Shown: positions 1 to 27,200, counted from the first letter of the stretch. The stretch: DNA of 64,000 bases from Candidatus Shapirobacteria bacterium (GCA_028704885.1 JAQWEN010000001.1:109172-173171); one strand, 5' to 3'. Made by a program: numbers and translations. The notes: generated by a model from the letters alone, not told the origin.

Positions 1-480
1 GCAGATAAATTGTTGATTGGTTTGATTGAGATAAAGGGCCAAATCGCTTATAGTTTTGTTGGTGCAACCACCAGAGTTATCTAAACAAATAGTGCCAATA
101 GGTTTATCGTTGGCCTGACCAAGGAGAACATCTTTAATTATTTTGCCTTTAAGACAGGATTGAGTATTGTTGAAAGTAGATCTGGAACCGGGATAGGCAT
201 GTTTTTCCTTATATTCTGGAGAATCAACATTACCAAAATCTGAAACATCTTCAGCTTTTATAATTTCGCTACGATTTGTGTCGATATCGTATGGTTTTTC
301 AAAAAGACTAGTAATCCAAGCCCAGATTATGGCAAGAATATTAGGGTCGGTGTATTTTATGAATTTACAAGTGTAAGTTGGAGTTGGAGTTTCAGCAAAA
401 ATAGGAGTGACTTGAAAGAGAGGGATGATTAAAAAAAATAAAACAAAAATTAGGCGATAAAAAGCTAATTTAAGAGACAT
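1..480 (-). CDS. Hypothetical secreted protein, N-terminal part; the ORF runs off the window start so the C-terminus is outside
   Basis: My own translation of the reverse strand from the ATG at 480 gives MSLKLAFYRLIFVLFFLIIPLFQVTPIFAETPTPTY..., a signal-peptide-like hydrophobic N-terminus. The frame stays open to position 1. It is not in the ORF track because it is truncated. Confidence 0.4.
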   Translation of the reverse strand, partial: MSLKLAFYRLIFVLFFLIIPLFQVTPIFAETPTPTYTCKFIKYTDPNILAIIWAWITSLFEKPYDIDTNRSEIIKAEDVSDFGNVDSPEYKEKHAYPGSRSTFNNTQSCLKGKIIKDVLLGQANDKPIGTICLDNSGGCTNKTISDLALYLNQTNQQFIC

Positions 481-502: not shown

Positions 503-943
503 TTAAAAACCTCGACCGCCACCGCCATGAATTACACCAGAAGAACTGGTGTGAGTAGTAGAAGAGCTGGGAATAATAAAATCAAAAACATTAACACCAG
601 TAAAATTGCCAATAAATTTGATAATTAAGAAAGAAAGAATGACACCGACTAGACCAATAACTGAGGTGGTGAGAGTGGAAGTAGCTTTGGCGGTTTTTTT
701 GGGATCACCACCAGAAGTAAGATATAGAAAGCCACCTTTGAGGAGCATAATAAAAAAGGCAATTCCAGCAAAATAGACTATAACTTGGGCAATATTAGCA
801 AAAATACATTCAAAACCCTGAATATTGGCAATTTTGTCACCATTGCTGTCGAGGTTATAACAGGTGCTATTCCAAGCATCTTGGGCATAAACTGGAGAGG
901 GAGAGAGGATATTTGAGAGTAAATTCATGGTGTAATTATACAT
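503..943 (-). CDS. TrbC/VirB2-like (T4SS-type) pilin family small membrane protein, paralog 1 of 6
   Basis: Two hydrophobic helices flank a conserved 'TSGGDPKKT' motif. Five downstream paralogs share the architecture. Short pilins of this kind are typical in CPR. Confidence 0.6.
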   Translation of the reverse strand: MYNYTMNLLSNILSPSPVYAQDAWNSTCYNLDSNGDKIANIQGFECIFANIAQVIVYFAGIAFFIMLLKGGFLYLTSGGDPKKTAKATSTLTTSVIGLVGVILSFLIIKFIGNFTGVNVFDFIIPSSSTTHTSSSGVIHGGGGRGF

Positions 944-1005
944 TAAATCCTCTCTGTCTCGCTACTGCGAGACATCTCCCCTTAACAAAGGGAGAAGCCT
1001 TTAAC

Positions 1006-1032
1006 GAAAAACCCCTCCAGTTTTGGAGGGGT
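1006..1032 (-). terminator. Rho-independent terminator for the pilin gene at 1056..1433
   Basis: Hairpin cccctcca-gtttt-ggagggg. On the minus strand it is followed by a T-run, the complement of aaaaa at 1006-1011. Confidence 0.55.
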
Positions 1033-1055
1033 TTAAAAATCAATCTGATTTTAAA

Positions 1056-1433
1056 TTAGAAAGGTTTGATGGTTAGATCACCAAGGATGCTAATACCAAA
1101 AACTGTTCCAATTAATTGCATTATGGCCCAAGCTGCGAAAACAATGACTAAACCAATTAGAGCATTGGTAATTTGAGCACGAGCAGCAGCAACTTTCTTT
1201 TCATCACCACCAGAAGTAATCCATTTAAGACCACCAATGACAAGAATAAAGAAGAAAATTAAAGAAACGACGATTAAAACTAAGCTGATAGCACCGGAAA
1301 CCATACGATTGACAGTTAAACCTTCGAGATTTTTAAAGGTTCCGTCTCCGGCAGTTAACTTTAGGCTGTCAGCTGCATAGATTGGAGCGGCAATGGCAGC
1401 GAACTGAATTTTATTTTTGATTTGTTTAATCAT
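1056..1433 (-). CDS. TrbC/VirB2-like pilin family protein, paralog 2
   Basis: N-terminal hydrophobic segment, 'ITSGGDEKKVAAARA' motif, second TM helix. Confidence 0.6.
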   Translation of the reverse strand: MIKQIKNKIQFAAIAAPIYAADSLKLTAGDGTFKNLEGLTVNRMVSGAISLVLIVVSLIFFFILVIGGLKWITSGGDEKKVAAARAQITNALIGLVIVFAAWAIMQLIGTVFGISILGDLTIKPF

Positions 1434-1472
1434 TTTTATTTTAATAATTATTAACTAATTTTAGCAGTAAAT

Positions 1473-1844
1473 TTAAATAGTTGGCCATTTAATTTCTAAG
1501 GTGCCTAGTCCGTCGATACCAAAAATATAACCAACTAGTTTAAGAAGAGCGAGAACTGAGAAAATAATAACAATACCGACTAGGGAATAAAGAAGGGCAT
1601 GTTGGGCTTCTTCATATTTTTTAGGATCACCCATGGAAGAAATCATATGATAACCAGCGAGAATAAAATGATAGACAAAATAAATGACACCAAAAACAAA
1701 TAAAACAGAAATTATTGTTTGAATAGCACTATTAATATAGCCAGTGGGATTTTCACTTACATTTATGTTATCTTTGTTGGTTAAAACAGGATTAATTATT
1801 TGGGCGTAGATTGGTTGAATTAAAGTCATATCTTTATTGAGCAA
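1473..1844 (-). CDS. TrbC/VirB2-like pilin family protein, paralog 3
   Basis: 'SSMGDPKKYEEAQ' motif between two TM helices. Confidence 0.6.
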   Translation of the reverse strand: MLNKDMTLIQPIYAQIINPVLTNKDNINVSENPTGYINSAIQTIISVLFVFGVIYFVYHFILAGYHMISSMGDPKKYEEAQHALLYSLVGIVIIFSVLALLKLVGYIFGIDGLGTLEIKWPTI

Positions 1845-2196
1845 TCGTTTTACTAAAAAATGTTTGTAAATTGAAAACAGAACTCATACCAAGAAGATTG
1901 GCAATTAGAGCACCGAGACCATAGGCAAGGATAATGATGGCTAAACCCATAACATTTGTGGTTAATCGTTTTTTGGCTGATTCAAGTTCTTTTGGATCAC
2001 CTTGGGAAGCGATCATAGTAAAACCAGCTAAAATTATTTGGATAGTAAAATAAATGACACCGATGATAGTCATAATACCGATGATGGCACTAATAATGTT
2101 TTCGATTTGAGGAGCTGATCCAACATTTGTATCGCTTGGTTGGATACCTGGACCAGTAAGAGGATAGGCTAATAATTTATTGGTTAATTGGTTCAT
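1834..2196 (-). CDS. TrbC/VirB2-like pilin family protein, paralog 4
   Basis: 'ASQGDPKELESAKK' motif between two TM helices. Overlaps the neighbouring paralog by 11 nt. Confidence 0.6.
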   Translation of the reverse strand: MNQLTNKLLAYPLTGPGIQPSDTNVGSAPQIENIISAIIGIMTIIGVIYFTIQIILAGFTMIASQGDPKELESAKKRLTTNVMGLAIIILAYGLGALIANLLGMSSVFNLQTFFSKTIAQ

Positions 2197-2198
2197 AA

Positions 2199-2525
2199 TT
2201 ATATTTCTGGATTAAGAATGTTTAAGCCGAGCCAATGACCAATGGTATTGGTAAGGACAAAGGCAGAGGCAACAATAACAATACCAATAAGACTTTGCCA
2301 AATAGTGGCCCAAGCTTGAGCAGTTTTTTTCTCGTCACCGTTGGCAGAAAGATAAGTATAACCGGCAATAATAATTTGAATGACGAAATAGATGCCGGCA
2401 ATAGTGCCAGCTAGTTTAAAAATAGCACTTAAAAAAACGAAAATTCCATTACCACCACCACCGCCAGCATTTTCAAAATCCTGAATTGCTTTAGGAGCTT
2501 GAATGTTTCCAAAAATTCCTATCAT
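2199..2525 (-). CDS. TrbC/VirB2-like pilin family protein, paralog 5
   Basis: 'LSANGDEKKTAQAW' motif between two TM helices. A Gly-rich stretch GGGGGNG follows the N-terminus. Confidence 0.6.
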   Translation of the reverse strand: MIGIFGNIQAPKAIQDFENAGGGGGNGIFVFLSAIFKLAGTIAGIYFVIQIIIAGYTYLSANGDEKKTAQAWATIWQSLIGIVIVASAFVLTNTIGHWLGLNILNPEI

Positions 2526-2535
2526 ATTTTTATTT

Positions 2536-2871
2536 TTATAAGGTTGACTCTAAAATATTAAGTCCAGTAATAACTTCGATTATTTTAATAATGGAATAAG
2601 CCAAAAAAACAACGGCAAATCCAATTGCGGCATTGGTGATAGCCGATTTACCTTGGCTGGCTTTTTTAGGATCACCTTTGCCTGCGTTCATTATAACTGT
2701 AATTCCGCCAAAAATCAAAAGAGAGAGGAGAATAATGCCGGCGAGCATTAGAGAATATTTAAGAACAGCTGAAACAAGAATGCTGACACCGCCAGTTCCA
2801 TAAGTAGTTTCTAGGTTTTTACCTGTTCCAAGATTAATTTCGCCTATGTTGAAGGCTAACAACTGTTTCAT
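2536..2871 (-). CDS. TrbC/VirB2-like pilin family protein, paralog 6
   Basis: 'NAGKGDPKKASQGK' motif between two TM helices. Confidence 0.6.
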   Translation of the reverse strand: MKQLLAFNIGEINLGTGKNLETTYGTGGVSILVSAVLKYSLMLAGIILLSLLIFGGITVIMNAGKGDPKKASQGKSAITNAAIGFAVVFLAYSIIKIIEVITGLNILESTL

Positions 2872-2966
2872 TCTGTAAAATTATACTATATTTAAGGCTT
2901 AAAAAGAGGGTTTATTTTAATTAATAATTAAGAATTAATAATTAAGAATTTTTTTAATAAAAACGG

Positions 2967-3027: not shown

Positions 3028-3906
3028 ATGAAAAAAATAGTCGCCCCACTATTAATAGTATTTGGTGTTTTGTATTTATTACTTGGCACAAGACCGATTG
3101 AAGCTAAGGCGGTAAAGATTCTTCCAACTAAAACAGCAACTCCGACAGCAACCTTAATTCCAACAGCAATTCCAACAATAACCAATATTACCGAAGCAAA
3201 AAGCAATAAAATTGATTATAAGGTGGGAAAATGGAATGGTTTGAATAGTATGAGATGGATGATTAGACTGGCGATTGAAAGAGGGGTGTCGACTAATACA
3301 ATAGTTTTACTTTTATTACTGCCATTAATTGCAACTTTGGTGTCATTTTTGCATTATGTGGTGGGTTTGTCCGGTTATGGAATTTTTATGCCAACAATGA
3401 TTGCAGTGGCTTTTTTGGCAACTGGTTTCTTTGGTGGATTATTACTTTTTGCTTTAATTTTGATTATTTCTTTGGTTGGTGATTTTATTTTGAAAAAATT
3501 GAAGATTCATTTTTGGCCAGCTAGAGCCATTAATTTAATGTTTATTTCGGTGGCTGTTTTTGGGTTAATGTTATTGACTAGTTTTGTAGATTTGATTGAT
3601 ATTAGTTCAATTTCTATTTTCCCAATCTTATTTATGATACTTTTAGCAGAAGAATTTGTGAGAACACAATTGGTTAAAAGTAAAAGTGAGGCTAAAAATC
3701 TAATGATAGGAACAATTGTATTGGCTATTAGTGGAGGAGTCTTGATGAATTTTAGTTCGGTTCAAAATTTGGTTTTGAGATATCCAGAACTAGTTATATT
3801 AGTAGTATTGGTGGCAAATTTATTGATTGGAAATTATTCAGGAATAAGGTTGACAGAAATAAAAAGATTTAAAGGGGCGATACGTTCTAAACCCACCACC
3901 CGATAA
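3028..3906 (+). CDS. Polytopic membrane protein with about 6-7 TM helices and a signal/anchor plus Thr/Pro-rich linker; possible 7TM partner of the ATP-grasp system
   Basis: N-terminal hydrophobic segment, T/P-rich low-complexity stretch, then six to seven predicted TM helices. The C-terminal 'SKPTTR' tail is encoded by an RPE-like repeat. Confidence 0.55.
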   Translation: MKKIVAPLLIVFGVLYLLLGTRPIEAKAVKILPTKTATPTATLIPTAIPTITNITEAKSNKIDYKVGKWNGLNSMRWMIRLAIERGVSTNTIVLLLLLPLIATLVSFLHYVVGLSGYGIFMPTMIAVAFLATGFFGGLLLFALILIISLVGDFILKKLKIHFWPARAINLMFISVAVFGLMLLTSFVDLIDISSISIFPILFMILLAEEFVRTQLVKSKSEAKNLMIGTIVLAISGGVLMNFSSVQNLVLRYPELVILVVLVANLLIGNYSGIRLTEIKRFKGAIRSKPTTR

Positions 3907-3954
3907 ATCGGGAGCCTCCCTTGAAGAAGGGAGGCCTTAATTAATTTAATTAAT

Positions 3955-5319
3955 ATGTTTAATTTAAGAAAATATCGACAATTTTTGACCAAAAATGAGA
4001 GAAATAAGGTCTATTTGAGAAAAAATAGTGCCAGTGGTAAGGCAATTGCTGATAGTAAATTTAAAACAAAAAGAATTATTTCTAAAGCTGGAGTGTCGGT
4101 ACCAAAGCTGATAGCCAGATTCAAAACAGAACAAGATTTGGCTAAATTCAGATGGGAAGATTTGGAAGGTAATTTTGTAATAAAACCGGAATCTGGTTAT
4201 GGTGGAGATGGAATTTTAATTATTCGAAAAAGAGGAAAATGGGCTGGGGAATGGCAAAAAATGAATGGAGAAATTGTAAAAAGTTACGATTTGAATATGC
4301 AGTGTGAGGAAATTTTGGCAGGAAAATATAGTTTACATACTATGCCAGATAGAGTATTGATTGAAGAAAGAATTAAAATTCATCCGATGTTCTTATCGTT
4401 GACTAAGTCAGGAACTCCAGATATTAGAGTGATTGTTTACAACAATGTGCCTGTGATGGCGATGTTTAGAATTCCGACTGAAAAAAGTGGAGGTAAGGCT
4501 AATTTACAACAAGGGGCAATGGGACTGGGGATTGATTTAGCAACAGGAATTACAACTTTTGGAATTGAAGGAAAAGGAGAAGAAATCTATCGAATTTATG
4601 ATTTTGGTAAGAAAAAAAATAGAAAAGTGAATGGAATTAAAATTCCTTTTTGGAGAGAAATATTAGAAACGGCGATTAATTGTCAAAAAGCGGTTCCAAC
4701 TTTGGGATTTATGGGGGTGGATGTGGTTTTGGATAAAGAGAAGGGGCCAATGGTGCTGGAAGTAAATGCCAGACCGGGACTTTCGATTCAAATTTGTAAT
4801 AAAGCGGGGTTAAAAGCCAGAATAGAAAAAGTTGACGGGATAACAGTTCGAAGTATTGATCATGCGGTTACTTTGGCTAAATATTTATTTGGAGAAAGTT
4901 TTTTTGAAAAAGTTGAAGAAAAAGAGAAAAAACAAACAGTGGCACCAATAGAAATAATTAAAGTTAAAATTCCAAAAGGGTTTAAACCGCTTTTACAAAA
5001 AAGTCCGATTCTTAAGCAAGGAAAGCATAGAGTGGTGGATGTTAGAGCTAAAGTTGATACTGGAGCATTTAGAAGTTCGATTGATAGAAATTTGGCTGAA
5101 AAATTGGGTTTATTAACTAAAGATAGAATTTTATATTATCGAAATTATAAGTCGAGTTTGGGAAAACATCACGATCGACCGGTAATCGGGATTACTTTTT
5201 GGCTTAATGGCAGAAAAGTGATAACGGCAGTGAATGTAGCGGATAGAGATAAATTGAGAACTAAATTTTTATTAGGTAGAAAGGATCTAGGAGGATTCTT
5301 GGTTAGTGCTAAAAAATAA
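3955..5319 (+). CDS. RimK-related ATP-grasp ligase (alpha-L-glutamate-ligase-like) fused to a C-terminal RimB-type retropepsin-like domain ('ATP-dependent Zn protease', PF05618-like)
   Basis: The N-terminal 'RNKVYLRKNSASGKAIADSKFKTKRIISKAGVSVPKL' is typical of the TIGR02291-like ligase family; ATP-grasp core follows. The C-terminal 'RAKVDTGAFRSSID...LLGRKDLGGFLV' matches the DTGA-containing retropepsin-like domain that partners RimK. Confidence 0.65.
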   Translation: MFNLRKYRQFLTKNERNKVYLRKNSASGKAIADSKFKTKRIISKAGVSVPKLIARFKTEQDLAKFRWEDLEGNFVIKPESGYGGDGILIIRKRGKWAGEWQKMNGEIVKSYDLNMQCEEILAGKYSLHTMPDRVLIEERIKIHPMFLSLTKSGTPDIRVIVYNNVPVMAMFRIPTEKSGGKANLQQGAMGLGIDLATGITTFGIEGKGEEIYRIYDFGKKKNRKVNGIKIPFWREILETAINCQKAVPTLGFMGVDVVLDKEKGPMVLEVNARPGLSIQICNKAGLKARIEKVDGITVRSIDHAVTLAKYLFGESFFEKVEEKEKKQTVAPIEIIKVKIPKGFKPLLQKSPILKQGKHRVVDVRAKVDTGAFRSSIDRNLAEKLGLLTKDRILYYRNYKSSLGKHHDRPVIGITFWLNGRKVITAVNVADRDKLRTKFLLGRKDLGGFLVSAKK

Positions 5320-5322
5320 TAA

Positions 5323-5372
5323 TCCTCTCTGTCCCGCTGTTGCGGGACATCTCCCCTTAACAAAGGGAGAAA
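5323..5372. repeat. RPE-like palindromic repeat (family 1)
   Basis: aatcctctctgtcCCGCTGTTGCGGGacatctccCCTTaacaAAGGgagaa. The copy at 7376 is nearly identical. Confidence 0.8.
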
Positions 5373-5415
5373 ATAAATTAATAATTAAGAATTAAAAATT
5401 AATAATATATAAAAT

Positions 5416-6387
5416 ATGACCAAAATAGCAGTGTTTTTTGGAGGGAAAATTAGTCAACATTTGGTGTTGGTGAAAAAGGCGGCAAAGAAATTGGGAGTTA
5501 AATTGGATTTAATTTCTTATAATAAAATTTGCTTTGATACGGAAAGTAGCAAAATTTTAATAAGACCAAATTTGGTCGGCGAAAGCAGAATTAAACAATT
5601 TGATGATTTTCAAAAAGTCGATGATTATGATGTGTTATTTTTTAGAACCACCGGAAAACATTGGGAAGAGGTCGATCTTATTATTAATCAAATTAATAAG
5701 GGCGACCACAAGAGTCGCCCGTACATAGTTGATCCATTGGTGGAAAGTGGAAAACCATCGATGGCTTGTAAAGCTTGGCAAATGTTGGCTTTGAAAGAAG
5801 CGGGAATAGAGGTACCAAAAACGGTTTATGGGAGTTTGTGGTATTTGTATGAACAAATGCGGGCAGACACATCGGTCTGCCCTTACACTTGGCCAGTGAT
5901 AATTAAAGGATCGGGTGGAGATAGAGGAACAAGAGTTTTTAAGGCGGATAATTTAAAACAATTGGAAAAATTAGTTAGAGATTTGAGAAAAAGTGAAACT
6001 GAAGAGGGCCGAAGATATATGCTACAAGAATTTATTCCTAATGATGGTGATTTTAGAGTTTTGGTTTTGGGAGAAAAAGTGTTGGGAGTGATGAAAAGAA
6101 GCAGTCAATCGGTGGCCGAATTTAAGAATAATTATTCGGCCGGGGGAAAAGTAGAAGTGGCTGATTTGCCGGAAGAAATTAAACAATTAGCGGTTAAGGC
6201 GGCGAAAGTTTGCGGATTGGCAGTGGCGGGAGTGGATGTGGCTTTTAGAGATTTTGATCTTAAAAAACCAGTAATTTGGGAAGTTAATAAAGGACCTCAA
6301 TTTAAAGGTTTTATGCAGGCAACTGGAATTGATGTACCAGCAGAAATAGTTAAATTTTTAGTAAGTTTAAAACCCCTCTGTCGATAA
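5416..6387 (+). CDS. RimK-family ATP-grasp ligase
   Basis: Pre-ATP-grasp N-terminus. ATP-grasp motifs 'WPVIIKGSGGDRGTRVF', 'MLQEFIPNDGDFRVLVLGEKVLGVMKRS' and 'AGVDVAF...WEVNKGPQFKGF'. The C-terminal 'KPLCR' is encoded by a repeat copy. Confidence 0.75.
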   Translation: MTKIAVFFGGKISQHLVLVKKAAKKLGVKLDLISYNKICFDTESSKILIRPNLVGESRIKQFDDFQKVDDYDVLFFRTTGKHWEEVDLIINQINKGDHKSRPYIVDPLVESGKPSMACKAWQMLALKEAGIEVPKTVYGSLWYLYEQMRADTSVCPYTWPVIIKGSGGDRGTRVFKADNLKQLEKLVRDLRKSETEEGRRYMLQEFIPNDGDFRVLVLGEKVLGVMKRSSQSVAEFKNNYSAGGKVEVADLPEEIKQLAVKAAKVCGLAVAGVDVAFRDFDLKKPVIWEVNKGPQFKGFMQATGIDVPAEIVKFLVSLKPLCR

Positions 6388-6417
6388 ATCGACATCTCCC
6401 CTTGAAGAAGGGGAGAA
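6372..6417. repeat. RPE-like palindromic repeat (family 1); the central hairpin is a cgATAAAtcg variant
   Basis: cccctctgtCGATAAATCGacatctccCCTTgaagAAGGggagaa. Confidence 0.75.
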
Positions 6418-6438
6418 ATATAAATTAAATATATAAAA

Positions 6439-7377
6439 ATGAATAAAAAAATAGTCACATTTACAATGTCGTTAAAACAAAGCCAATTTGAGGTAGATAG
6501 ATTGGAGACTGAAGCTAAAAAACTGGGAGTAGAGGTAAACAGATCGCTTTATAAAGATCTAACTTTTAATTTGGAAAATGGGAAAACCAAAGTTTTGATT
6601 AGAGAAGAAGAAATTAATGGAGAAAATACTTTGGGAATGTGGTTTAGAGTGGCGGGAACAGTGTCGGGAAAATATACTGAGGGTCGAAATTTGGCGATAA
6701 GACTTTTACAAAATGAAGTGTTTGCGGCCAATCATACAGGATATTTGAATTGGACCAGAATGGGAAAAATTAGTCAACATGGATTATTTCTAGAAAACAA
6801 TATTCCAGTGGTACCGACTAAAATATTTTATACAAAAGAACAAATTCAAAACCCCTCTGTCCTTCGGACATCTCCCCTTGATGAAAGGGAGACTTTTGGG
6901 GATTGGGAATTTCCAATTATTGCGAAGCATGAAAAGGGCTATCAAGGTAAAAGTGTGAGGAAATTTGAATCTATAAAAGAAGTTAGAAAGTTTGTAAAGA
7001 GAATTAATGAAAAGAATATTGGAATGTTTTTGTGGCAAAAATGTTTACCAACCAGATGGGATTTGAGAATTATTGTGTTGGACGGAAAGGCAATTGGGGC
7101 CATGAAAAGATCGGCAGTCGGTGATGAATTTAGAAGCAATTTTAGCTTGGGGGGAAATGTTGAAGCATGGAATTTGTCGGAAACTGATAGAGAAATTGCG
7201 GAAAAGGTGGCTAAAGTTTGTGGATTGGATTATTGTGGAGTAGATATTATGAAAGACAATGATGACAATAGTTTTGTATTGGAAGTAAACCGACAATGCC
7301 AATTTCAGGGTTTTGAAAAGTCGACGGGAATTAATGTGGCTAAATTAGTAGTGGAAATGTTTTTGAAAAAGAAATAA
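6439..7377 (+). CDS. RimK-family ATP-grasp ligase carrying an in-frame RPE-like repeat insertion
   Basis: 'FPIIAKHEKGYQGKSVRKF', 'DLRIIVLDGKAIGAMKRS' and 'GVDIM...LEVNRQCQFQGF' are ATP-grasp motifs. Residues 'NPSVLRTSPLDERE' are translated from the repeat copy at 6850-6893. Confidence 0.7.
   Translation: MNKKIVTFTMSLKQSQFEVDRLETEAKKLGVEVNRSLYKDLTFNLENGKTKVLIREEEINGENTLGMWFRVAGTVSGKYTEGRNLAIRLLQNEVFAANHTGYLNWTRMGKISQHGLFLENNIPVVPTKIFYTKEQIQNPSVLRTSPLDERETFGDWEFPIIAKHEKGYQGKSVRKFESIKEVRKFVKRINEKNIGMFLWQKCLPTRWDLRIIVLDGKAIGAMKRSAVGDEFRSNFSLGGNVEAWNLSETDREIAEKVAKVCGLDYCGVDIMKDNDDNSFVLEVNRQCQFQGFEKSTGINVAKLVVEMFLKKK
6850..6893. repeat. RPE-like repeat (family 1) inserted in-frame inside the ATP-grasp CDS
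   Basis: aacccctctgtCCTTCGGacatctccCCTTgatgaAAGGgagac. The frame is uninterrupted. Confidence 0.7.
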
Positions 7378-7489: not shown

Positions 7490-7563
7490 GGGTGATTAGC
7501 TCAGTTGGTTAGAGCACCGTCCTGATAAGACGGGGGTCGGAGGTTCGAGTCCTCCATCACCCA
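7490..7563 (+). tRNA. tRNA-Ile (anticodon GAT)
   Basis: The cloverleaf folds by hand. Acceptor stem GGGTGAT/ATCACCC. Anticodon stem CCGTC/GACGG with loop CTGATAA. T-arm GGAGG-TTCGAGT-CCTCC. CCA is not encoded. Confidence 0.85.
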
Positions 7564-7573
7564 CAGATACAAA

Positions 7574-7626
7574 ATCCCTCTCGTTCGCCAGCTGGCGAAC
7601 GCATCTCCCTTTGATAAAAGGGAGAA
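7574..7626. repeat. RPE-like repeat (family 1); the central hairpin is a gttcgccagctggcgaac variant
   Basis: aatccctctcGTTCGCCAGCTGGCGAACgcatctccCTTTgataAAAGggagaa. It lies immediately 3' of tRNA-Ile. Confidence 0.7.
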
Positions 7627-7655
7627 ATTGTTTTTGTTTTGTTAGAATTAAAGAC

Positions 7656-8771
7656 ATGAAGAAGTGGATTTTAAGATTAGGATTGATTCTTATATTAGTT
7701 GGTGGGTTTTTGGGATGGGGTTTTTTGAATAATAAAATTGAGATTTTAAATCCATTGTCCAATAAAAAAACTGTTGTTAATCATAAAAAAAACATGAAAG
7801 TGGTGGGTTTTTTACCTACTTGGAATATTGGTAAAACAATTGAATATACAGATGAAATTAGCCATTTGATATTTTTGGGAATAGAAATTGATGAAAAAGG
7901 AAACTTGATCTGGGATACTCAGAGTAAAAAAATAAATAATGAAAATTATCTAAAACAAAAAGAATTAATTTGGAAAAATGGAGGTAAAAATATTTTGGGA
8001 ATTAAATTATTTGAAGATGAAAATATTGATAAATTGATGGCTTCGGAGGAGGCCCAGGATAACTTGCTTAATCAATTAGCTGAATTATTAAAAACAAATA
8101 AGTTTGATGGGGTTAATGTTGATTTTGAATATATGGGGAATCCAACAGCAATTTTATCGGAAGAAATTGTTGGTTTTTTAAATAAATTAAAAGAAGAAAA
8201 TTTAGGCGAAATCAGTTTAGATGTATTTGCCAATACTATTATTAAAGGTGATCAAGAGAATTTATTAAAATTAATGGCCGAAGTTGATTATTTAATAGTG
8301 ATGGCTTATGACTTTCATCGACCAGGAGTGGATTTTGCTGGACCGGTGGCACCAATTAGGGCATCAGTAGGAGAGAGAAGTATTTTGGAAGTGATAGAAA
8401 AAATAGGAATTTCTGGTTTAGACAAAACTAAAATGGTGTTGGCATATCCCTTATATGGTTATGAATGGAAAACTTATAACAATGAATTTGGGGCAGCGGT
8501 TAAAAGAGGCTGGTCGGCTTTGGCTTCGTATAAAAGGATGAAAGAGATGATAGATACTGCCGACACTAAAGCTATGGCGGTTAAATGGGATGAGGAATCG
8601 ATGACACCGTGGATGTCTTTTGAAGAAAATGGGGTAATTCACCAGATTTATTTTGAAAATTTGGAAAGTATTACCAGGAAAATTGAATTGGCAAAAAATA
8701 ATCAGATGGGAGGAATTGGTTTTTGGGCGTTAGGTTATGAAGGAGAAAATAGTGAAGTTTGGGAATTTTAG
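7656..8771 (+). CDS. Glycoside hydrolase family 18 (chitinase-like) protein with an N-terminal membrane anchor
   Basis: The GH18 catalytic motif 'FDGVNVDFEY' fits the DGxDxDxE pattern. 'LIVMAYDFH' and 'GGIGFWALGYEG' are present. I chose the start at MKKWILRLGLILILVGG (7656); the track start at 7611 would read through the repeat. Confidence 0.7.
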   Translation: MKKWILRLGLILILVGGFLGWGFLNNKIEILNPLSNKKTVVNHKKNMKVVGFLPTWNIGKTIEYTDEISHLIFLGIEIDEKGNLIWDTQSKKINNENYLKQKELIWKNGGKNILGIKLFEDENIDKLMASEEAQDNLLNQLAELLKTNKFDGVNVDFEYMGNPTAILSEEIVGFLNKLKEENLGEISLDVFANTIIKGDQENLLKLMAEVDYLIVMAYDFHRPGVDFAGPVAPIRASVGERSILEVIEKIGISGLDKTKMVLAYPLYGYEWKTYNNEFGAAVKRGWSALASYKRMKEMIDTADTKAMAVKWDEESMTPWMSFEENGVIHQIYFENLESITRKIELAKNNQMGGIGFWALGYEGENSEVWEF

Positions 8772-9412
8772 CTATTTTTTTTAAGCCATTTTTCTCGTTT
8801 AAGAAAAAGGAATCCCAAAATTAGACCAGCACCGACAACAGTGAGAACACTTTCGATTTTATCTAGACCATGAGCTAGACCAGTAAAAGCTTCGCCCATT
8901 TGAAAACCGATAAAGCCTAAAATAATGGCACGAACAATAAGGGCTAAAAACATAATAGGATAAAATTTGGCTGGTTTAAAGCGGAAAGCACCACAGAAAC
9001 CAGACATTAAAGAAACTGGGACAACGGGAATAATGACAGCAATAAAAATAAAGAGTTCATCTTTGATGGTTTTTTGAAAATCGGCTCTAATTTTTTCAAT
9101 TAAAGGCCAAGAAATACCAACATATTTACCAAATTTATCAACTAATGGTCGACCACCAAAATAAGCGATTAAAAAAACCATACTGGTACCAATAACGGCA
9201 CCAATGGAATAAGGAAGGGAAACTTTGGAAATTATTTCCCAAAGAGCTTGAAAAATGGAAACATTATGAGAAACAAGAAAGGCGCCACCGGACATAGTAA
9301 TAATAGGGGATGGAATAGGAACTATGATTTGTTCAACTATACCGCCAATGAACATAGATAAAGATCCATGGGTTTTGACCATGTCGAGAATAATTTGAAG
9401 AATTTGAGTCAT
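8768..9412 (-). CDS. DedA/TVP38-family membrane protein
   Basis: 'GGIVEQIIVPIPSPIITMSGGAFL' matches the DedA signature 'e.i.PiP.e.l...aG'. 'GGRPLVDKFGKY' is present. Multiple TM helices. Confidence 0.65.
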   Translation of the reverse strand: MTQILQIILDMVKTHGSLSMFIGGIVEQIIVPIPSPIITMSGGAFLVSHNVSIFQALWEIISKVSLPYSIGAVIGTSMVFLIAYFGGRPLVDKFGKYVGISWPLIEKIRADFQKTIKDELFIFIAVIIPVVPVSLMSGFCGAFRFKPAKFYPIMFLALIVRAIILGFIGFQMGEAFTGLAHGLDKIESVLTVVGAGLILGFLFLKREKWLKKNS

Positions 9413-9484
9413 GGCTTAATATTATCGTCAAAATGAATTATTGTCTAGCGAACTTTTAGAGATAAACTGAGCTATATTTAGTTG

Positions 9485-9513
9485 TTGACGTGTCTGTTCA
9501 AATTAGGTAGAAT
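9485..9513 (+). promoter_or_regulatory. Near-consensus sigma70 promoter: TTGACG, 17-nt spacer, TAGAAT
   Basis: ttgacg at 9485-9490, tagaat at 9508-9513, spacer exactly 17 nt. Confidence 0.6.
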
Positions 9514-9616
9514 ACTTCCACTTATCGAGATGCTGAAAGTCAACCTAAAAAACAATAAAAACTTTATTAAAGGGGGATTGCCCGCTTAAGAAAGTAAATT
9601 GTAAATGGAATATTGA

Positions 9617-9644
9617 CCGAAAGCTCCGAGCTTTCGGTTTTTTT
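9617..9644 (+). terminator. Intrinsic terminator closing the roughly 130-nt unit that begins at the promoter
   Basis: ccgaaagc-tccga-gctttcgg followed by ttttttt. Confidence 0.6.
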
Positions 9645-9680
9645 ATGACCAAAAGCAGTACTTTAAAGAGGATAGCATTT

Positions 9681-9754
9681 GGGCCTGTGGCTTAGTTGGT
9701 TATAGCGCCTCATTTGCAATGAGGAGGTCGGGAGTTCGACTCTCCCCAGGTCCA
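9681..9754 (+). tRNA. tRNA-Ala (anticodon TGC)
   Basis: Acceptor stem GGGCCTG/CAGGTCC includes a G3:U70 wobble, the alanine identity element. Anticodon stem CCTCA/TGAGG with loop TTTGCAA. T-arm GGGAG-TTCGACT-CTCCC. Confidence 0.85.
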
Positions 9755-9928
9755 CCTACGCATAAAGCTACGGTGGATAAATCCACTAATAAATGGTTAG
9801 AAATAAGGAGACAAAGAAATTTATCTCCTTAAACTAAGTATTTGTACATTAACAATTTATTGAATCGAAAGTAATTTAATTTCAATTTCGTTTATTCTTG
9901 GCAACTAAATTGAGTTGCCAAATATTGA

Positions 9929-12855
<2,927 letters not shown>

Positions 12856-13061
12856 GATTTAAGCTAAGTAGAGAGAAGATTGAAGAAACTTTTTCAATAT
12901 GTTTGGCTTTTAGCCCCAATCAAAATTTGGGATTAAAAGCTGAATGGGCAACTCAATTTAGAGGCCAAGAAGAAGAACTTTAGAGCTTTAGTTCGCTAGA
13001 GCTTTAGATTTTAGAAATTAGAAATTATAATTACATTTTCGATCAAATTTAGTTTTTGAAC

Positions 13062-13178
13062 TCTGGTCATTGGAGCGAAGTGGACCCACCTCTTCCCATT
13101 TCGAACAGAGAAGTGAAACTCTTTAGCGCTGACAATAGTCTTTCCGCAAGGGATCTTGAAGATAGGTCGTGGCCAGAA
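13062..13178 (+). rRNA. rrf: 5S ribosomal RNA
   Basis: 'cttcccatttcgaacagagaagtgaaactctttagcgctgacaatagt' matches the 5S loop-B/C consensus '...CCCATnCCGAACnnGGAAGTnAAGC...'. Terminal helix ctggtca/tggccag. Confidence 0.85.
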
Positions 13179-22659: not shown

Positions 22660-23019
22660 ATGATTGATAATAAATTTGAACAACTTAAGGTTTGGCAAAA
22701 AGCTCATCAATTAACTTTAGATATTTATAGAGTAACTAAAAAATTTCCAAAAGAAGAAAAATATTCTTTAGTTGATCAGATTAAAAGGTCTTCTAGTTCA
22801 ATTCCAACTAATATCGTCGAAGGAAATGAAAGAAAGACTAAAAATGAATATATCCAATTTTTATATATAGCTAAAGGTTCTTGCGCTGAGACCAAATATC
22901 ATTTACTTTTATCAAAAGATTTAAATTATCTCTCATTAGAGGAATATATCAATCTAAATGAACAAACTATTGAAATAAGTAAAATGCTTTCTAGTTTTAT
23001 TAATTTTCTTAAAAACTGA
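22660..23019 (+). CDS. Four-helix-bundle protein (TIGR02436 / 23S rRNA-IVS protein family; Avd-like)
   Basis: 'LKVWQKAHQLTLDIYRVTKKFPKEEKYSLVDQIKRSSSSIPTNIVEGNERKTKNEYIQFLYIAKGSCAETKYHL' matches the family consensus, including 'NI.EG..r' and 'A.GS..E'. Confidence 0.75.
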   Translation: MIDNKFEQLKVWQKAHQLTLDIYRVTKKFPKEEKYSLVDQIKRSSSSIPTNIVEGNERKTKNEYIQFLYIAKGSCAETKYHLLLSKDLNYLSLEEYINLNEQTIEISKMLSSFINFLKN

Positions 23020-24253: not shown

Positions 24254-27200
24254 TTAGTTAATAATCCACCAGTTAATAATAATGTCTTGATCTAAATAGT
24301 TGTCTAAAGCAATAGTAAAAGAGGATTCTGATTCAGAAACAACTTTGGATTTAACGTATGGAACTTGGTTTTTGGTGGAACCGACTGGAGTGAGATAAAC
24401 CATAGAATTTGGAGTGATTTTATTATTACTAATAATTATTTCAGTTTTGCCGGCTGGAAGGGTGGCAGTGCCAGCGGTGGCATTGGAGGTTAATTGAGAA
24501 GAACTGGTAGCAATGGCACCGAAACCGGATTCAGCAATAATGGTTTGAGCACTATCAGTTGAGATTTTCAGTTTATCAGATATCAGTTCTTCAGATGTTA
24601 ATTTTTTGGTTTGGATTTCGTCGGCAGTAATTAAATTGGCCATTAAACTGCCAGAGACTTTAAGATTGCCGGTGATTTCAACTTCGCCATTTTCGGCAAT
24701 AACCAAAGTGTCGCCCATGATATGAACAGAACCAGTAGAAGATGGTTGAATGAAAAGAGCGGAGTTGGTAGTTTCAATTAAATTATCTTTAATAGCAATT
24801 TCACCAGTAGTGAAAGTGCCAGTGACAAAGGCATTACCAAGTTCGGTGTCGCCTTGGACCATAAGTTTGGCACCGACAACAAGATTATTAGTAAGAGCGA
24901 GATCGCCGTTTATTTTAGCCGAATCACTGGCAATATTCATTGACCAATCAGAAGATTGAGACATAATTGAGCTGCCAGTGATGGCAGAGGATGAGGCTTC
25001 GTTTGTAGAAATTAATTTTTTAAGTTCATCGCGGAGAGAACTAACCTTGGCGGTCATTAAATCACCAAAAGAACCTTCTTTGGAAATAATGTTGTCGGCA
25101 TATAAAGTAGATACGCTCGCTTCGCGGGCTGTCAGTTTGTCAGATATCAGTTCGTCAGTTGTTAAGGTTCCGGAAATGGTGGCAGTGGTAGCAGTTAATT
25201 CGTCAATGTTGGCTTTTGGAGAAATAATTTTTTCAGCGACTAAGTTTTTAGTAACTATATTAGTAGCGGAAATTAAACCAGCTTTGATTTTAGCGGAAGC
25301 GATTTCGGCAAATTGTCCCATGCGAGTGACAGTAGCGCCAAGAGTATCCGTTAGAGAATAAGTGGCTGCCTCGATTTCATTTTTGGCACCATCGTAACCG
25401 AGAGAAGCGAGAACTTCATCGGAAACATTATAATTGACATTAATTTCGCCAGTAGCAGTAATAGAAAGATCTTTATTGAGATTGGTAACTTTAGCATCAA
25501 CTTCTTGAATGCCACGGATGGCTAAAGGAATCATACCAATATAGTTAATACTCTTATAACCATCGCTGCCAGTATTAACGAAACTTGGAAGAATTTGTTC
25601 AACATCTTGGGCAATGAAACCGTATTGTCGTTGAGCCATCTCTTGAGGATTAGTTATACCAACTTTGTCAGCATAAGCTTGGTTCCAATTGAAACTGACT
25701 GGATTAAGACTATTAAGAACGGAAAGACTGTCAAAAATTTCAATATTAGGGTTGGAGCTAGAACCAAGTCCAATGTTAACAACATCATCTTTAAGTCGTT
25801 GATCGGAAAGCCAGCTGGTACTAGAACTCCAGTCAGGAGAATTACTAGAGTAAAAAGGTCGACCATTAGTATCCATACCAATTTGTCGATTGGCATGAGT
25901 AAAACATAATTCATCACCGTTACCGCCAGAGACAGTACATTGAGAGATTGTCCAGCTGCCGATAGTAAAAGCATCACCTTGAGCAACATAAGTATATTCG
26001 GTACTACCGTTGAAGGCACGAATACGATCAGCATGGGTATGAATGTTCCAAATGTTGGCTGTGGTTTCATCTTTAACATTGATACCACCAGCTGATTGGC
26101 TGGAAGGAGTACCAGAGATATAAAGAGCACCGCCGGTTATTTCCATTTTACCGTAGGTAGCATTAGGACTAGCGGTGCCGACACCGACATTGCCACTACC
26201 AGTAAGAGATAAAGCCATTGATTCTCCAGCATTTGGGTATGATTTAACATAAAAACTTAGATTTGTTAAATTAGCACCAGAACCACTAGCAGTGAAGGCT
26301 GATCTGGCGTAATAGCTTGTAGGTTCATTACTATAACTCCATCTTAAGTTAGGACCACTAGAGGAAATATCTAAATTTGATTGAGGATTAGTAGTTCCAA
26401 TGCCGACATTGCCACCAAGAGGATTTAACATTAAAGGAAAAGTAAAATTATCGCTTTCTCTCATTGCTTGTAGCCAAGATCCATAAGTTGGACCTCCAGC
26501 CAGAGTACCAATATGGACACCAGCGTCACCTCCTAAAAATTTTGCAACTGCATTGACAGAAGTTATTGTATTATTTTGTGATCCTTTTACGTCCAATTTA
26601 GCTCCTGGATTGGTGGTGCCGATGCCGACGAGGCCAGTATCAGTGATGATCATTCTATCAGTTGTTCCAGCGTCGGCGTTAGCAGTAGCGAATATTATGG
26701 AACCAGATCCATAATTTGCAGCTCCTCTTTTAACCCAAATTGAGGCATTGTTGGCAGTGTTACCTGTGTTTCTCCAAAATATTTGACCTAAGTTGTTATA
26801 AGAACTGCCACCAGAACTTTTTAGTGCTATATTTCCTGCAACTTCTAATTTTTCCAAAGGATTGGTGGTGCCGATGCCGACTTTGCCAGCGAAATAATTA
26901 TTTCCAGTACCGACAGTACTGATTTCACCAGCAATTTGGAAATCACCGTTACCACTTAGAGCAGCAATATTAGTGGTGGCTAGTTGCCAAATCCAACCTC
27001 GGGTGGTGGCACCAGAAAAACGATTGTATAAAGCCCAATCGTTAGTAACTGGACCATAAGTTCCATAACCAGCGGTGGCAGTGGTTTGCATTTGAGTGAA
27101 ATAACCATTACCTAATGAGCCATAATAACTGAGGGATCTATTACTGCTAGCGGTTAGTTCAATACTAGTTCCAACAACAAGAGAGGTGCCAACATTGAGG

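What the first reader, a model, noticed from the sequence alone, without database searches (positions are those of the whole stretch)
503..2871. Six tandem paralogs of a TrbC/VirB2-like pilin with a conserved G-D-P/E-K-K motif
All six small proteins share the same architecture: N-terminal hydrophobic or signal segment, a (S/A/N)xGD(P/E)KK motif, then a second TM helix. They are nonetheless highly divergent in sequence, so this is a diversified family rather than recent duplicates. Tandem pilin arrays of this kind are a hallmark of CPR bacteria. The array sits near comEA and comEC elsewhere in the window, which suggests a DNA-uptake or cell-contact apparatus. The degree of amplification, six copies including an 11-nt gene overlap, is notable.
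Basis: partly seen in the sequence, partly recalled or inferred. Interest (0 to 1): 0.55.

Follow-up and report, generated by a model that had tools for sequence, protein, structure and literature searches.

The report
Six-gene VirB2-like pilin array (Patescibacteria)

Summary
Six minus-strand genes (503-2871) all score above Pfam's threshold for PF18895 T4SS_pilin, and each has two hydrophobic helices around a short G-D-x-K loop. They are 22-36% identical to one another.

This kind of array is already published. VirB2-like pilin arrays of 2-11 genes are catalogued in Patescibacteria, especially Microgenomatia, and a six-pilin array is essential in the saccharibacterium Southlakia.

What I add:
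- **Fixed set:** the paralogues have 1:1 positional orthologues. The order A-B-C-D-E-F recurs in 51 of 79 species-level genomes, and 52 of 66 complete arrays hold exactly six genes.
- **Slowest paralogue:** the fifth gene, E (1056-1433), evolves most slowly.
- **Two units:** an intrinsic terminator follows E here and in 45 of 51 relatives, splitting the array into A-E and F plus downstream genes.
- **Downstream partners:** in relatives F is followed by a secreted protein, usually with a cell-wall-hydrolase domain, and a polytopic membrane protein with a weak fold resemblance to VirB6/DotA. The window cuts this off.

Corrections:
- comEA/comEC lie about 50 kb away and are unlinked.
- The 11-nt overlap is probably a start-codon artefact.
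- Homology to canonical VirB2/TrbC is only indirect.
- No T4SS ATPase is in the window.

That the proteins form a pilus is inferred, not shown.

The parts
2536..2871 (-). Pilin paralogue A (111 aa), first gene of the array. Loop reads GKGDPKK.
   Evidence: ORF. PF18895 33.7 bits, E 3.8e-8. Two hydrophobic helices around the loop. Positional orthologues are 54-71% identical.
2880..2890 (-). Promoter-like -10 element TATAGTATAAT, ending 8 nt before the ATG of A. A promoter role is inferred.
   Evidence: Sequence. It is the only occurrence in the 64 kb window, against 0.08 expected. The same 11-mer sits 6 nt before the ATG of gene F in L001 and L004.
2199..2525 (-). Pilin paralogue B (108 aa). 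Loop reads ANGDEKK.
   Evidence: PF18895 35.3 bits. Sub-threshold TrbC PF04956 match, E 0.016. Orthologues are 52-66% identical.
1834..2196 (-). Pilin paralogue C (120 aa). Loop reads SQGDPKE.
   Evidence: PF18895 30.3 bits. Orthologues are 45-74% identical.
1473..1829 (-). Pilin paralogue D (118 aa from the ATG at 1829; the longest ORF starts at a TTG at 1844, which creates the reported 11-nt overlap). Loop reads SMGDPKK.
   Evidence: PF18895 34.7 bits. Orthologues begin at the position of the 1829 ATG.
1056..1433 (-). Pilin paralogue E (125 aa), the slowest-evolving copy and a candidate major subunit. It has a signal-peptide-like N-terminus (...AAPIYA|AD). Loop reads SGGDEKK.
   Evidence: PF18895 39.0 bits, the best of the six. 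There are 866 homologues, the 120 listed being 67-96% identical and the named ones mostly Ca. Shapirobacteria. Mean orthologue identity is 75%, against 53-61% for the other five. Median identity is 63% against 47-53% over 51 genomes. The AF2 model is a helical hairpin.
1007..1034 (-). Intrinsic-terminator-like hairpin (CCCCTCC-aaaact-GGAGGGG followed by TTTTT) directly after gene E. It divides the array into two transcription units (inferred).
   Evidence: Sequence. The fold of the 112-nt E-F spacer is -46.3 kcal/mol, z = -5.7. L001 shows compensatory stem changes (GGGCGGAC/GTTCGCCC + TTTTT) and L004 keeps the stem. A hairpin plus T-run follows E in 45 of 51 related arrays, against 0-5 after any other gene.
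935..942 (-). Extended -10-like element TGTATAAT, 6 nt before the ATG at 928. This is the proposed promoter of the F-G(-H) unit (inferred).
   Evidence: Sequence. L001 and L004 have TATAGTATAAT at the same 6-nt distance from the ATG of F.
503..928 (-). Pilin paralogue F (141 aa from the ATG at 928; the longest ORF starts at 943). It has a Cys pair in the N-terminal exposed part and a Ser/Thr/Gly-rich tail. Loop reads SGGDPKK.
   Evidence: PF18895 35.2 bits. Orthologues start MNLL... and keep both Cys. Two Cys are found before the loop in at least 27 of 51 orthologues.
1..480 (-). 5' part (160 codons) of the next gene, G, cut by the window edge. It encodes a secreted Cys-rich protein whose orthologues carry SpoIID or SpoIID+VanY cell-wall-hydrolase domains, or none; one genome has an extra SLT-domain gene before G.
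   Evidence: Translation. BLASTP to the SpoIID-domain protein of L004 gives E 2e-12.

Best explanation
**What it is.** The region is a chromosomal array of six old, individually conserved paralogues of the Patescibacterial VirB2-like 'T4SS_pilin' family (PF18895), in a Shapirobacteria-like (Microgenomatia) genome.

**Shown here.**
- Each gene encodes a 108-141 aa helical-hairpin membrane protein. It has a short leader or variable N-terminal segment, helix 1, a basic G-D-x-K-K loop, helix 2 and a variable tail.
- The six form a fixed ordered set, A-B-C-D-E-F, shared by dozens of species.
- E evolves most slowly.
- A conserved intrinsic terminator follows E.
- F heads a second group of genes that in relatives continues into a secreted protein, usually with a peptidoglycan-hydrolase domain, and a polytopic membrane protein.

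**Inferred, by analogy with VirB2/TrbC pilins and the essential six-pilin array of Southlakia.**
- The subunits are inserted into the cytoplasmic membrane with the basic loop on the cytoplasmic side and both ends outside.
- A monoderm-type T4SS then extracts and polymerises them. Its VirB4 ATPase would be encoded elsewhere in the genome, and a divergent VirB6-like protein would be encoded just downstream.
- The product would be a surface filament or conduit used for contact or exchange with a host cell.
- E would be the major subunit.
- A-D and F would be minor or specialised subunits, not interchangeable antigenic variants.
For: **Family and fold**
- All six proteins exceed the PF18895 gathering score.
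- All six also give sub-threshold matches to NF045849, the Mbov_0395 pilin-like conjugal transfer protein of mycoplasma ICEs.
- Hydropathy and the AF2 model show a two-helix hairpin.
- A profile of the six finds 69,445 cluster representatives at E <= 1e-3.
- Among these, P0127, P0138 and P0125 carry modules that score above threshold for both PF18895 and TrbC/VirB2 PF04956 on the same stretches. This links the family to VirB2/TrbC.

**Taxon**
- Named homologues are mostly Ca. Shapirobacteria, with some Woesebacteria.

**Fixed ancient set**
- Positional orthologues are 43-90% identical, against 21-39% off the diagonal for all but one comparison (E against a lineage-specific E duplicate in L006, 54%).
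- The order ABCDEF recurs in 51 of 79 species-representative loci.
- Of 66 complete arrays, 52 hold exactly six genes.
- E is the most conserved paralogue.

**Two units**
- The terminator after E is, and is present in 45 of 51 relatives.
- -10-like boxes precede A and F.

**Link to an apparatus**
- In relatives F is followed by a protein with a SpoIID or SpoIID+VanY domain, or no recognised domain; L006 has an extra SLT-domain gene.
- A conserved 510-590 aa polytopic protein lies within 6 kb downstream in 62 of 66 complete arrays.

**Literature**
- VirB2-like arrays of 2-11 genes, averaging 25% identity, are abundant in Microgenomatia. The two Shapirobacteria assemblies I read in Table S1 are scored VirB4-positive (PMC12102498).
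- The six-pilin array of Southlakia is essential (PMC10633639, PMC12857230).
Against: - No pilus has been seen for any PF18895 protein. The name rests on remote homology and gene context.
- The canonical TrbC model is matched only below threshold, in 2 of 6 proteins.
- hhalign against Agrobacterium-type VirB2 gives a probability below 1%.
- A sequence-profile search of the PDB finds nothing.
- No VirB4, VirD4 or VirB6 Pfam match occurs among window ORFs of 100 aa or more.
- None occurs within 10 kb of the array in the four orthologous loci with gene tables. The array is therefore not inside a recognisable T4SS cluster, unlike in Southlakia.
- Naming E as the major subunit rests only on conservation and the terminator, not on expression data.
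Confidence: 0.6

Rival explanations
1. The six proteins form a fixed heteromeric membrane assembly rather than an extruded filament. They would stay in the cytoplasmic membrane as obligate, non-interchangeable partners of a channel or platform, possibly together with the downstream polytopic protein. No homopolymeric pilus would be made.
For: - The same six paralogues occur in the same order in 51 of 79 species, with exactly six genes in 52 of 66 complete arrays.
- Each paralogue is under its own purifying selection.
- Relatives in other lineages fuse 2-17 pilin modules into one polypeptide, for example P0121 with 6 modules, P0127 with 11 and P0124 with 16-17. A chain of two-helix hairpins is topologically a valid polytopic membrane protein. 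It could become a filament subunit only after proteolytic processing.
- The array is not next to virB4.
Against: - Some family members score as TrbC/VirB2 pilins.
- The array co-occurs with a cell-wall-hydrolase-type gene, which is what one expects for a structure that crosses the wall.
- The N- and C-terminal parts vary between orthologues while the hairpin core is conserved, which fits exposed ends (seen by eye in the sequences; not quantified).
- Heteromeric composition and extrusion do not exclude each other.
Confidence: 0.2
2. The paralogues are alternative major pilins, used for antigenic variation or host range as proposed for Bartonella and Anaplasma VirB2 arrays and suggested for Patescibacteria. 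One or a few would be used at a time to fit different hosts or to evade host or phage recognition.
For: - Identity within the array is low, at 22-36%.
- Variation is concentrated in the N- and C-terminal parts (seen by eye; not quantified).
- PMC12102498 suggests this reading.
- Copy number expands to 7-11 in Woesebacteria-like relatives, mostly through extra E- and A-type copies.
Against: - The paralogues are old and kept 1:1 in fixed order across many species, with no sign of turnover, gene conversion or recent duplication within the Shapirobacteria-type arrays.
- Five of them share one transcription unit, with only 2-39 nt (or a few nt of overlap) between genes, so independent switching is unlikely.
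Confidence: 0.12
3. This is the first reader's reading: the array belongs to a DNA-uptake or competence apparatus working with ComEA and ComEC, like type IV competence pseudopili.
For: - ComEA (52602-53213) and a split ComEC (53365-54288 and 54352-55077) are in the same 64 kb window.
- T4SS-related machines import DNA in Helicobacter and in archaea. This rests on established knowledge and the review PMC12857230.
Against: - The com genes are about 50 kb away, on the other strand, beyond the 23S-5S rRNA genes.
- They are absent from the conserved neighbourhood of the array in relatives.
- The six proteins have no class III (prepilin) leader, meaning no G|F/M-x-x-x-E followed by a single N-terminal helix. 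They are two-helix hairpins instead.
- No PilB, PilT or PilC families are found in the window.
- In Southlakia, comEC deletion abolishes competence but not viability, while the T4SS and its pilins are essential (PMC12857230).
Confidence: 0.04

Closest known systems
Essential six-gene pilin array in the T4SS locus of Ca. Southlakia epibionticum ML1 (Wang et al. 2023, PMC10633639; reviewed in PMC12857230)
   Same: Patescibacteria. Six tandem pilins that are conserved in structure but divergent in sequence and are VirB2-like. A monoderm organism in which T4SS pilins are unexpected.
   Different: In Southlakia the pilins sit inside the T4SS gene cluster, which the review describes as also encoding VirB1-, VirB3-, VirB4-, VirB6-, VirB8- and VirD4-like proteins. 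Here no recognisable T4SS gene lies beside the array; only a hydrolase-type gene and an unannotated polytopic protein follow it in relatives. The class also differs (Microgenomatia, not Saccharimonadia). Essentiality is unknown here.
Patescibacterial VirB2 arrays catalogued by Quinonero-Coronel et al. 2025 (PMC12102498)
   Same: The definition fits exactly: 2-11 PF18895/PF04956-type genes in tandem, low identity within the array (average 25%, maximum 54%), and most abundant in Microgenomatia and Saccharimonadia.
   Different: That survey did not describe the fixed six-member orthologous set, the slow-evolving fifth gene, the internal terminator or the downstream polytopic protein. It reports VirB6 as scarce in Microgenomatia.
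Canonical VirB2/TrbC conjugative pilins (Agrobacterium T-pilin, RP4 TrbC; Pfam PF04956)
   Same: Small size, a leader followed by two hydrophobic helices joined by a short basic loop, and a helical-hairpin fold.
   Different: No direct sequence or profile similarity is detectable. They are usually single genes inside a virB/trb operon of diderm bacteria. Cyclisation or other processing is unknown for the proteins here.
VirB2 paralogue arrays of Bartonella and Anaplasma phagocytophilum
   Same: Tandem amplification and diversification of T4SS pilin genes.
   Different: Those arrays are thought to serve antigenic variation. Here the paralogues are old, 1:1 orthologous across species, and mostly co-transcribed.
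Mbov_0395-family pilin-like conjugal transfer protein of mycoplasma ICEs (NCBIfam NF045849)
   Same: A small two-helix protein of a monoderm conjugation system. All six window proteins align to it over about 65-75 residues.
   Different: Scores are 19.5-30.7 bits against a cut-off of 40, so membership is not met.

Membership tests
Pfam PF18895 T4SS_pilin | Whole-protein HMM score at or above the gathering score of 26.6 bits | tested here: met
   30.3-39.0 bits for all six proteins. Homologues of E carry precomputed PF18895 hits.
Pfam PF18895 T4SS_pilin | Two hydrophobic helices joined by a short polar or basic loop | tested here: met
   Hydropathy of all six. The AF2 model of E has helices 41-73 and 78-112.
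Patescibacterial VirB2-like pilin array (PMC12102498) | At least two such genes in tandem, with low identity within the array (published average 25%, maximum 54%) | tested here: met
   Six adjacent genes at 22-36% pairwise identity.
Canonical VirB2/TrbC pilin (Pfam PF04956) | HMM score at or above the gathering score of 27.9 bits | tested here: not met
   Only B (15.8 bits, E 0.016) and D (15.0 bits, E 0.029) give sub-threshold hits. The other four give none.
Canonical VirB2/TrbC pilin (Pfam PF04956) | Profile-profile similarity to bona fide VirB2 | tested here: not met
   hhalign of A1 and A2 against an alignment of 25 Agrobacterium/Rhizobium-type VirB2 proteins gives probabilities of 0.3-0.5%. 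The VirB2 alignment is narrow, so this is a weak test.
Canonical VirB2/TrbC pilin (Pfam PF04956) | Connection through intermediate sequences (same superfamily) | tested here: met
   Proteins retrieved by the window profile score above threshold for both PF18895 and PF04956 on overlapping modules: P0127 at E 2.4e-45, P0138 and P0125.
Canonical VirB2/TrbC pilin (Pfam PF04956) | Fold match to solved conjugative pilins | tested here: inconclusive
   [not shown]
T4SS gene cluster membership | Encoded beside virB4 and other T4SS core genes | tested here: not met
   No VirB4, VirD4 or VirB6 families occur among window ORFs of 100 aa or more, nor within 10 kb in L001, L004, L006 and L007. There is only a hydrolase-type gene and a polytopic protein with a weak fold resemblance to VirB6/DotA.
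T4SS gene cluster membership | A VirB4 ATPase somewhere in the genome | not testable with these tools
   Only 64 kb of this genome is available. The two Shapirobacteria assemblies I read in Table S1 of PMC12102498 are listed as VirB4-positive.
Conjugative-type pilus subunit (function) | Leader cleavage, extraction from the membrane and polymerisation into an extracellular filament | not testable with these tools
   D, E and F have a (P)(I/V)YA|(Q/A) site, like the signal-peptidase site of the neighbouring secreted protein G. This is suggestive only.
Type IV pilin / competence pseudopilin (T4P, ComGC-like) | Class III leader (G|F/M-x-x-x-E) followed by a single N-terminal hydrophobic helix | tested here: not met
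   None of the six N-termini has the motif, and all six have two helices around a central loop.
NCBIfam NF045849 Mbov_0395 pilin-like conjugal transfer protein | Score at or above the cut-off of 40 bits | tested here: not met
   19.5-30.7 bits for the six proteins.

The most novel reading that the evidence does not exclude
The six pilins would not be variants of one filament subunit. They would be an obligate, fixed-composition hetero-assembly conserved across Microgenomatia, with the terminator after E setting the ratio between the two units. It would be built together with a previously unrecognised, highly divergent VirB6/DotA-like protein and a cell-wall hydrolase encoded directly downstream. 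This 'pilin + VirB1-like + VirB6-like' module would be physically separate from virB4. The existence in other lineages of single polypeptides carrying 2-17 fused pilin modules would then mark a new class of covalently concatenated T4SS pilins.
Probability: 0.2. Interest if true: 0.6.

Novelty: new member of a known kind. Interest (0 to 1): 0.3.

Why it matters
T4SS pilins in monoderm Patescibacteria are one of the few molecular leads to how these ultra-small epibionts attach to and exploit host bacteria, and in Southlakia they are essential. This locus adds no new kind of system.

The comparative results do sharpen the published picture:
- In Shapirobacteria-type genomes the array is a fixed six-member set with one slow-evolving member and an internal terminator. 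That argues for subunit specialisation rather than antigenic variation.
- The array is tied to a conserved polytopic protein that may be the 'missing' VirB6 of Microgenomatia.

Both points can be tested with existing metatranscriptomes, structure modelling and the Saccharibacteria genetic system.

Tried and rejected
- **Exact-sequence look-up of protein F:** not on record, so this genome itself is not in the collection.
- **PDB sequence-profile searches:** only chance matches for the pilins and for the downstream polytopic protein.
- **hhalign against Agrobacterium-type VirB2:** no similarity.
- **Pfam and NCBIfam on orthologues of the downstream proteins** (polytopic H, and the 685-868 aa opposite-strand protein): no significant family.
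- **PADLOC on nine unannotated window ORFs:** nothing.
- **Rfam on the whole window:** only rRNA and tRNA. No known RNA family lies in the E-F spacer.
- **The generic promoter/terminator scan:** it missed the main terminator and reported an overlapping weaker hairpin. The terminator was identified by reading the sequence, folding it and comparing relatives.
- **Rejected idea, competence pseudopilins:** wrong architecture, and no gene linkage.
- **Rejected idea, recent tandem duplication:** the paralogues have 1:1 orthologues across species.
- **Rejected idea, a specific functional link to the divergently transcribed 7TM_transglut/ATP-grasp cluster:** this was not pursued, because the whole region is syntenic among relatives, so adjacency alone carries no information.
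Full report
**1. What is in the sequence**

Positions 503-2871 hold six head-to-tail ORFs on the minus strand. I letter them in transcription order.

| Gene | Coordinates | Length |
|---|---|---|
| A | 2536-2871 | 111 aa |
| B | 2199-2525 | 108 aa |
| C | 1834-2196 | 120 aa |
| D | 1473-1844 | 123 aa |
| E | 1056-1433 | 125 aa |
| F | 503-943 | 146 aa |

- All six match Pfam PF18895 'T4SS_pilin' above its gathering score, at 30.3-39.0 bits against 26.6, with E 4e-7 to 9e-10.
- An HMM built from the six finds no further copy among the 303 stop-to-stop ORFs of the window.
- Hydropathy and an AlphaFold2 model of E (helices 41-73 and 78-112, core pLDDT 80-92) agree on the architecture. It is a polar N-terminal stretch of 26-40 residues, a long hydrophobic helix, a four- to five-residue loop, a second hydrophobic helix and a short tail.
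- In the alignment only G, D and the first K of the loop are invariant.
  - A has GKGDPKK and C has SQGDPKE.
- Pairwise identity is 22-36%, mean 30%.

**2. Corrections of detail**

- The 11-nt C/D overlap exists only if D starts at the TTG at 1844. Orthologues of D begin where the window has an ATG at 1829 (MTLIQPIYAQ...). That start leaves a 4-nt gap.
- F most likely starts at the ATG at 928 (MNLL..., as in all orthologues examined), not at 943.
- Spacers are 10, 2, 4 (or -11), 39 and 112 nt.

**3. Whose genome this is**

- The window carries 23S and 5S rRNA and two tRNAs, so it is chromosomal.
- E has 866 homologues. The 120 listed are 67-96% identical, and those that carry names are mostly 'Candidatus Shapirobacteria'.
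- A scan of species-representative genomes returned 79 loci from Shapirobacteria, Woesebacteria and Microgenomates.
- The closest is DAONDY010000002.1, at 80-86% nucleotide identity.
- The exact genome is not in the protein collection.

**4. Gene context**

- **In the window.** Pfam scans of every window ORF of 100 aa or more found no VirB4, VirD4, VirB6/TrbL or type IV pilus ATPase.
- **The com genes.** ComEA (52602-53213) and a ComEC split into two ORFs (53365-54288 and 54352-55077) exist. They are about 50 kb from the array and on the other strand.
- **Upstream of the array.** Transcribed divergently from the array, the window has a 7TM_transglut gene and three ATP-grasp genes (3028-7377).
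- **Downstream of the array.** The window edge cuts a minus-strand gene, G, at codon 160.
- **In relatives.** Orthologous loci show the same arrangement: six pilins, or seven in L006, followed by G and then H (L001, L002, L004-L007).
  - G is a secreted Cys-rich protein whose C-terminal domain varies: SpoIID, SpoIID+VanY, or none. L006 has an extra SLT-domain gene. The window fragment of G matches the SpoIID-bearing orthologue at E 2e-12.
  - H is a 510-590 aa polytopic membrane protein with no Pfam, NCBIfam or PDB sequence match.
  - Across 66 complete arrays, an H-family ORF lies within 6 kb downstream in 62.
- **Fold of H.** An AF2 model of H has mean pLDDT 73, and 85-95 across most of the membrane helices.
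  - It matters because PMC12102498 reports VirB6 as scarce in Microgenomatia and attributes this to extreme divergence.

**5. The six genes are an old, fixed set**

- Window paralogues compared with those of five other genomes give a clean diagonal. Positional orthologues are 43-90% identical. Off-diagonal values are 21-39% for all but one comparison, E against a lineage-specific E duplicate in L006 at 54%.
- I assigned every pilin ORF in the 79 loci to its best-matching window paralogue. The order ABCDEF appears in 51 loci, and the truncated loci (EF, CDEF) are consistent with it.
- Of 66 complete arrays, 52 have exactly six genes. The rest, mostly the more distant relatives with E 45-60% identical to the query, have 7-11, mainly through extra E- and A-type copies.
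- E evolves most slowly.
  - Mean orthologue identity is 75%, against 53-61% for the other five.
  - Median identity to the window over the 51 genomes is 63%, against 47-53%.
- F keeps a Cys pair in its N-terminal part.

**6. Transcription units (inferred)**

- Directly after the stop codon of E lies CCCCTCC-aaaact-GGAGGGG followed by TTTTT (1034-1007).
- The 112-nt spacer folds at -46.3 kcal/mol, z = -5.7.
- The stem is kept in L004 and replaced by a different, complementary stem in L001.
- A perfect-stem hairpin plus T-run follows E in 45 of 51 ABCDEF loci. It follows A in 5, B in 1, D in 1, and C or F in none.
- The element TATAGTATAAT is unique in the window (0.08 expected) and ends 8 nt before the ATG of A.
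- The same 11-mer ends 6 nt before the ATG of F in L001 and L004. The window has TGTATAAT at that place.
- I read this as two units: A-E, closed by a terminator, and F-G(-H). The short distance from the -10 box to the ATG suggests leaderless or near-leaderless mRNAs. None of this has been tested with RNA data.

**7. Relation to known pilins**

- **Direct evidence for homology with canonical VirB2/TrbC is weak.**
  - PF04956 is hit below threshold in B and D only.
  - hhalign against 25 Agrobacterium/Rhizobium VirB2 sequences gives probabilities below 1%.
  - PDB sequence and fold searches are uninformative.
- **Indirect evidence is good.**
  - A full-library search with the profile of the six found 69,445 cluster representatives at E <= 1e-3.
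  - Several top hits score above threshold for both PF18895 and PF04956 on the same modules. In P0127, TrbC covers residues 2-105 and the window profile covers 27-120. In P0125, the ranges are 208-284 and 216-281.
  - All six proteins also approach the mycoplasma ICE pilin-like family NF045849.
- **Conclusion.** The proteins are members of PF18895. That family is connected to TrbC/VirB2 through intermediates. They are not type IV (T4P) pilins, because there is no class III leader and the topology is wrong.

**8. What is already published**

- Wang et al. [quoted passage not shown] - It stresses that pili are unexpected in monoderm T4SSs.
  - It notes that comEC deletion abolishes competence but not viability, so the essential role is not tied to ComEC.
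- Quinonero-Coronel et al. 2025 (PMC12102498) searched 3,035 Patescibacteria assemblies with PF18895 and PF04956.
  - They report 441 arrays of 2-11 pilin genes in 383 assemblies, most abundant in Microgenomatia and Saccharimonadia, with an average identity within arrays of 25%.
  - They suggest a role in adapting to different hosts.
  - The pilin gene is near virB4 in 1,135 of 1,948 assemblies.
  - In Microgenomatia virB4 tends to lie near dnaA/dnaN.
  - The two Shapirobacteria assemblies I read in their Table S1 are VirB4-positive.
- The finding is thus one more member of a described kind.

**9. Most likely mechanism**

- **Shown:** family membership, hairpin architecture, the fixed orthologous six-gene set, the conserved terminator, and linkage to G and H in relatives.
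- **Inferred from VirB2-type systems and from Southlakia:**
  - The proteins insert into the membrane with the basic loop inside and the ends outside. D, E and F carry a (P)(I/V)YA|(Q/A) site that resembles the signal-peptidase site of G.
  - A monoderm-type T4SS extracts and polymerises them. Its VirB4 is encoded elsewhere. A wall hydrolase (G) and a VirB6-like platform (H) would assist.
  - The filament or conduit serves host contact or exchange.
- The fixed composition and the co-transcription of A-E argue for specialised subunits, with E as the major one, and against interchangeable antigenic variants. My confidence in this functional chain is moderate.

**10. Rivals**

- **A membrane-resident hetero-assembly.** It is favoured by the fixed composition and by fused poly-pilins, in which 2-17 modules sit in one polypeptide.
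- **Alternative major pilins for host range.** It is favoured by the divergence and suggested in the literature. It is weakened by 1:1 orthology and operon structure.
- **A competence apparatus with ComEA/ComEC.** It is rejected on distance, architecture, lack of conserved linkage, and the Southlakia genetics.

**11. Verdict**

The feature is real and correctly named at the family level. It is biologically interesting as a class but already described. The comparative details are modest increments: the fixed six-member set, the slow-evolving E, the terminator, the G/H module and the fused relatives. Interest 0.3; new member of a known kind.

Noticed in passing
Not in the window; proteins P0121, P0124, P0125, P0127, P0138 and most of the 150 best hits: Many relatives are single polypeptides with 2-17 tandem pilin modules (for example 552 aa with 6 modules, 1147 aa with 11, 1775 aa with 16-17). 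Each module is a full two-helix hairpin. Several score for both PF18895 and TrbC PF04956. PMC12102498, which describes arrays of separate genes, does not mention fused pilins. They may be real poly-pilins or gene-calling read-through.
   Followed up: partly
[not shown]
   Followed up: partly
window 3028-7377 (+): A 7TM_transglut membrane protein, an ATPgrasp_ST protein with a RimB-like protease tail, and two RimK-like ATP-grasp ligases are transcribed divergently from the array. They keep this position in all orthologous loci examined (L007 has one RimK-like gene). This looks like a peptide-modification or peptide-ligase system. Any link to pilin modification is pure speculation, because the whole region is syntenic.
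   Followed up: no
window 944-1055 (-): Besides the terminator, the E-F spacer holds two more strong hairpins (about 997-973 and 973-956). The whole 112 nt folds with z = -5.7. These two hairpins are not conserved in L001 or L004.
   Followed up: partly
window 2880-2890, 935-942; L001 and L004 upstream of gene F: -10-like boxes (TATAGTATAAT or TGTATAAT) end only 6-8 nt before the ATG, and no Shine-Dalgarno-like sequence precedes any of the six genes. This suggests leaderless or near-leaderless translation.
   Followed up: no
window 7490-13178: The order is tRNA-Ile, then two protein genes (GH18 at 7611-8771 and a VTT-domain protein at 8768-9412), then tRNA-Ala, 23S and 5S. No 16S rRNA is in the window. 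The rRNA operon therefore appears split or interrupted. A 23S-rRNA-intervening-sequence-protein gene lies separately at 22660-23019.
   Followed up: no
window 24254-35941 (-), 38536-42414 (-), 55437-62570 (+): Three giant predicted surface proteins are present: 3895 aa with a Peptidase_S74 domain, 1292 aa with four Laminin_G_3 domains, and 2377 aa with Kelch and fn3 repeats. They may be adhesins of the kind found essential in Saccharibacteria.
   Followed up: no
window 53365-54288 and 54352-55077 (+): ComEC is split into two ORFs, one with the Competence domain and one with the metallo-beta-lactamase domain, separated by 63 nt. This is either a genuine split gene or a frameshift or pseudogene.
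   Followed up: no
window 35928-36356 (-), 49197-49739 (+): Fragments of mobile-element genes are present: an integrase N-terminal SAM-like domain only (142 aa), abutting the giant gene, and an IS200-like Y1 transposase-like ORF with a weak partial match.
   Followed up: no
loci L010, L012, L014, L015, L017-L020 and others: Many species-representative records that carry the Shapirobacteria-type six-pilin array are titled 'uncultured Gammaproteobacteria bacterium' (binchicken MAGs), and one is titled 'Candidatus Methanoperedens sp.'. The titles are evidently wrong or placeholders.
   Followed up: no
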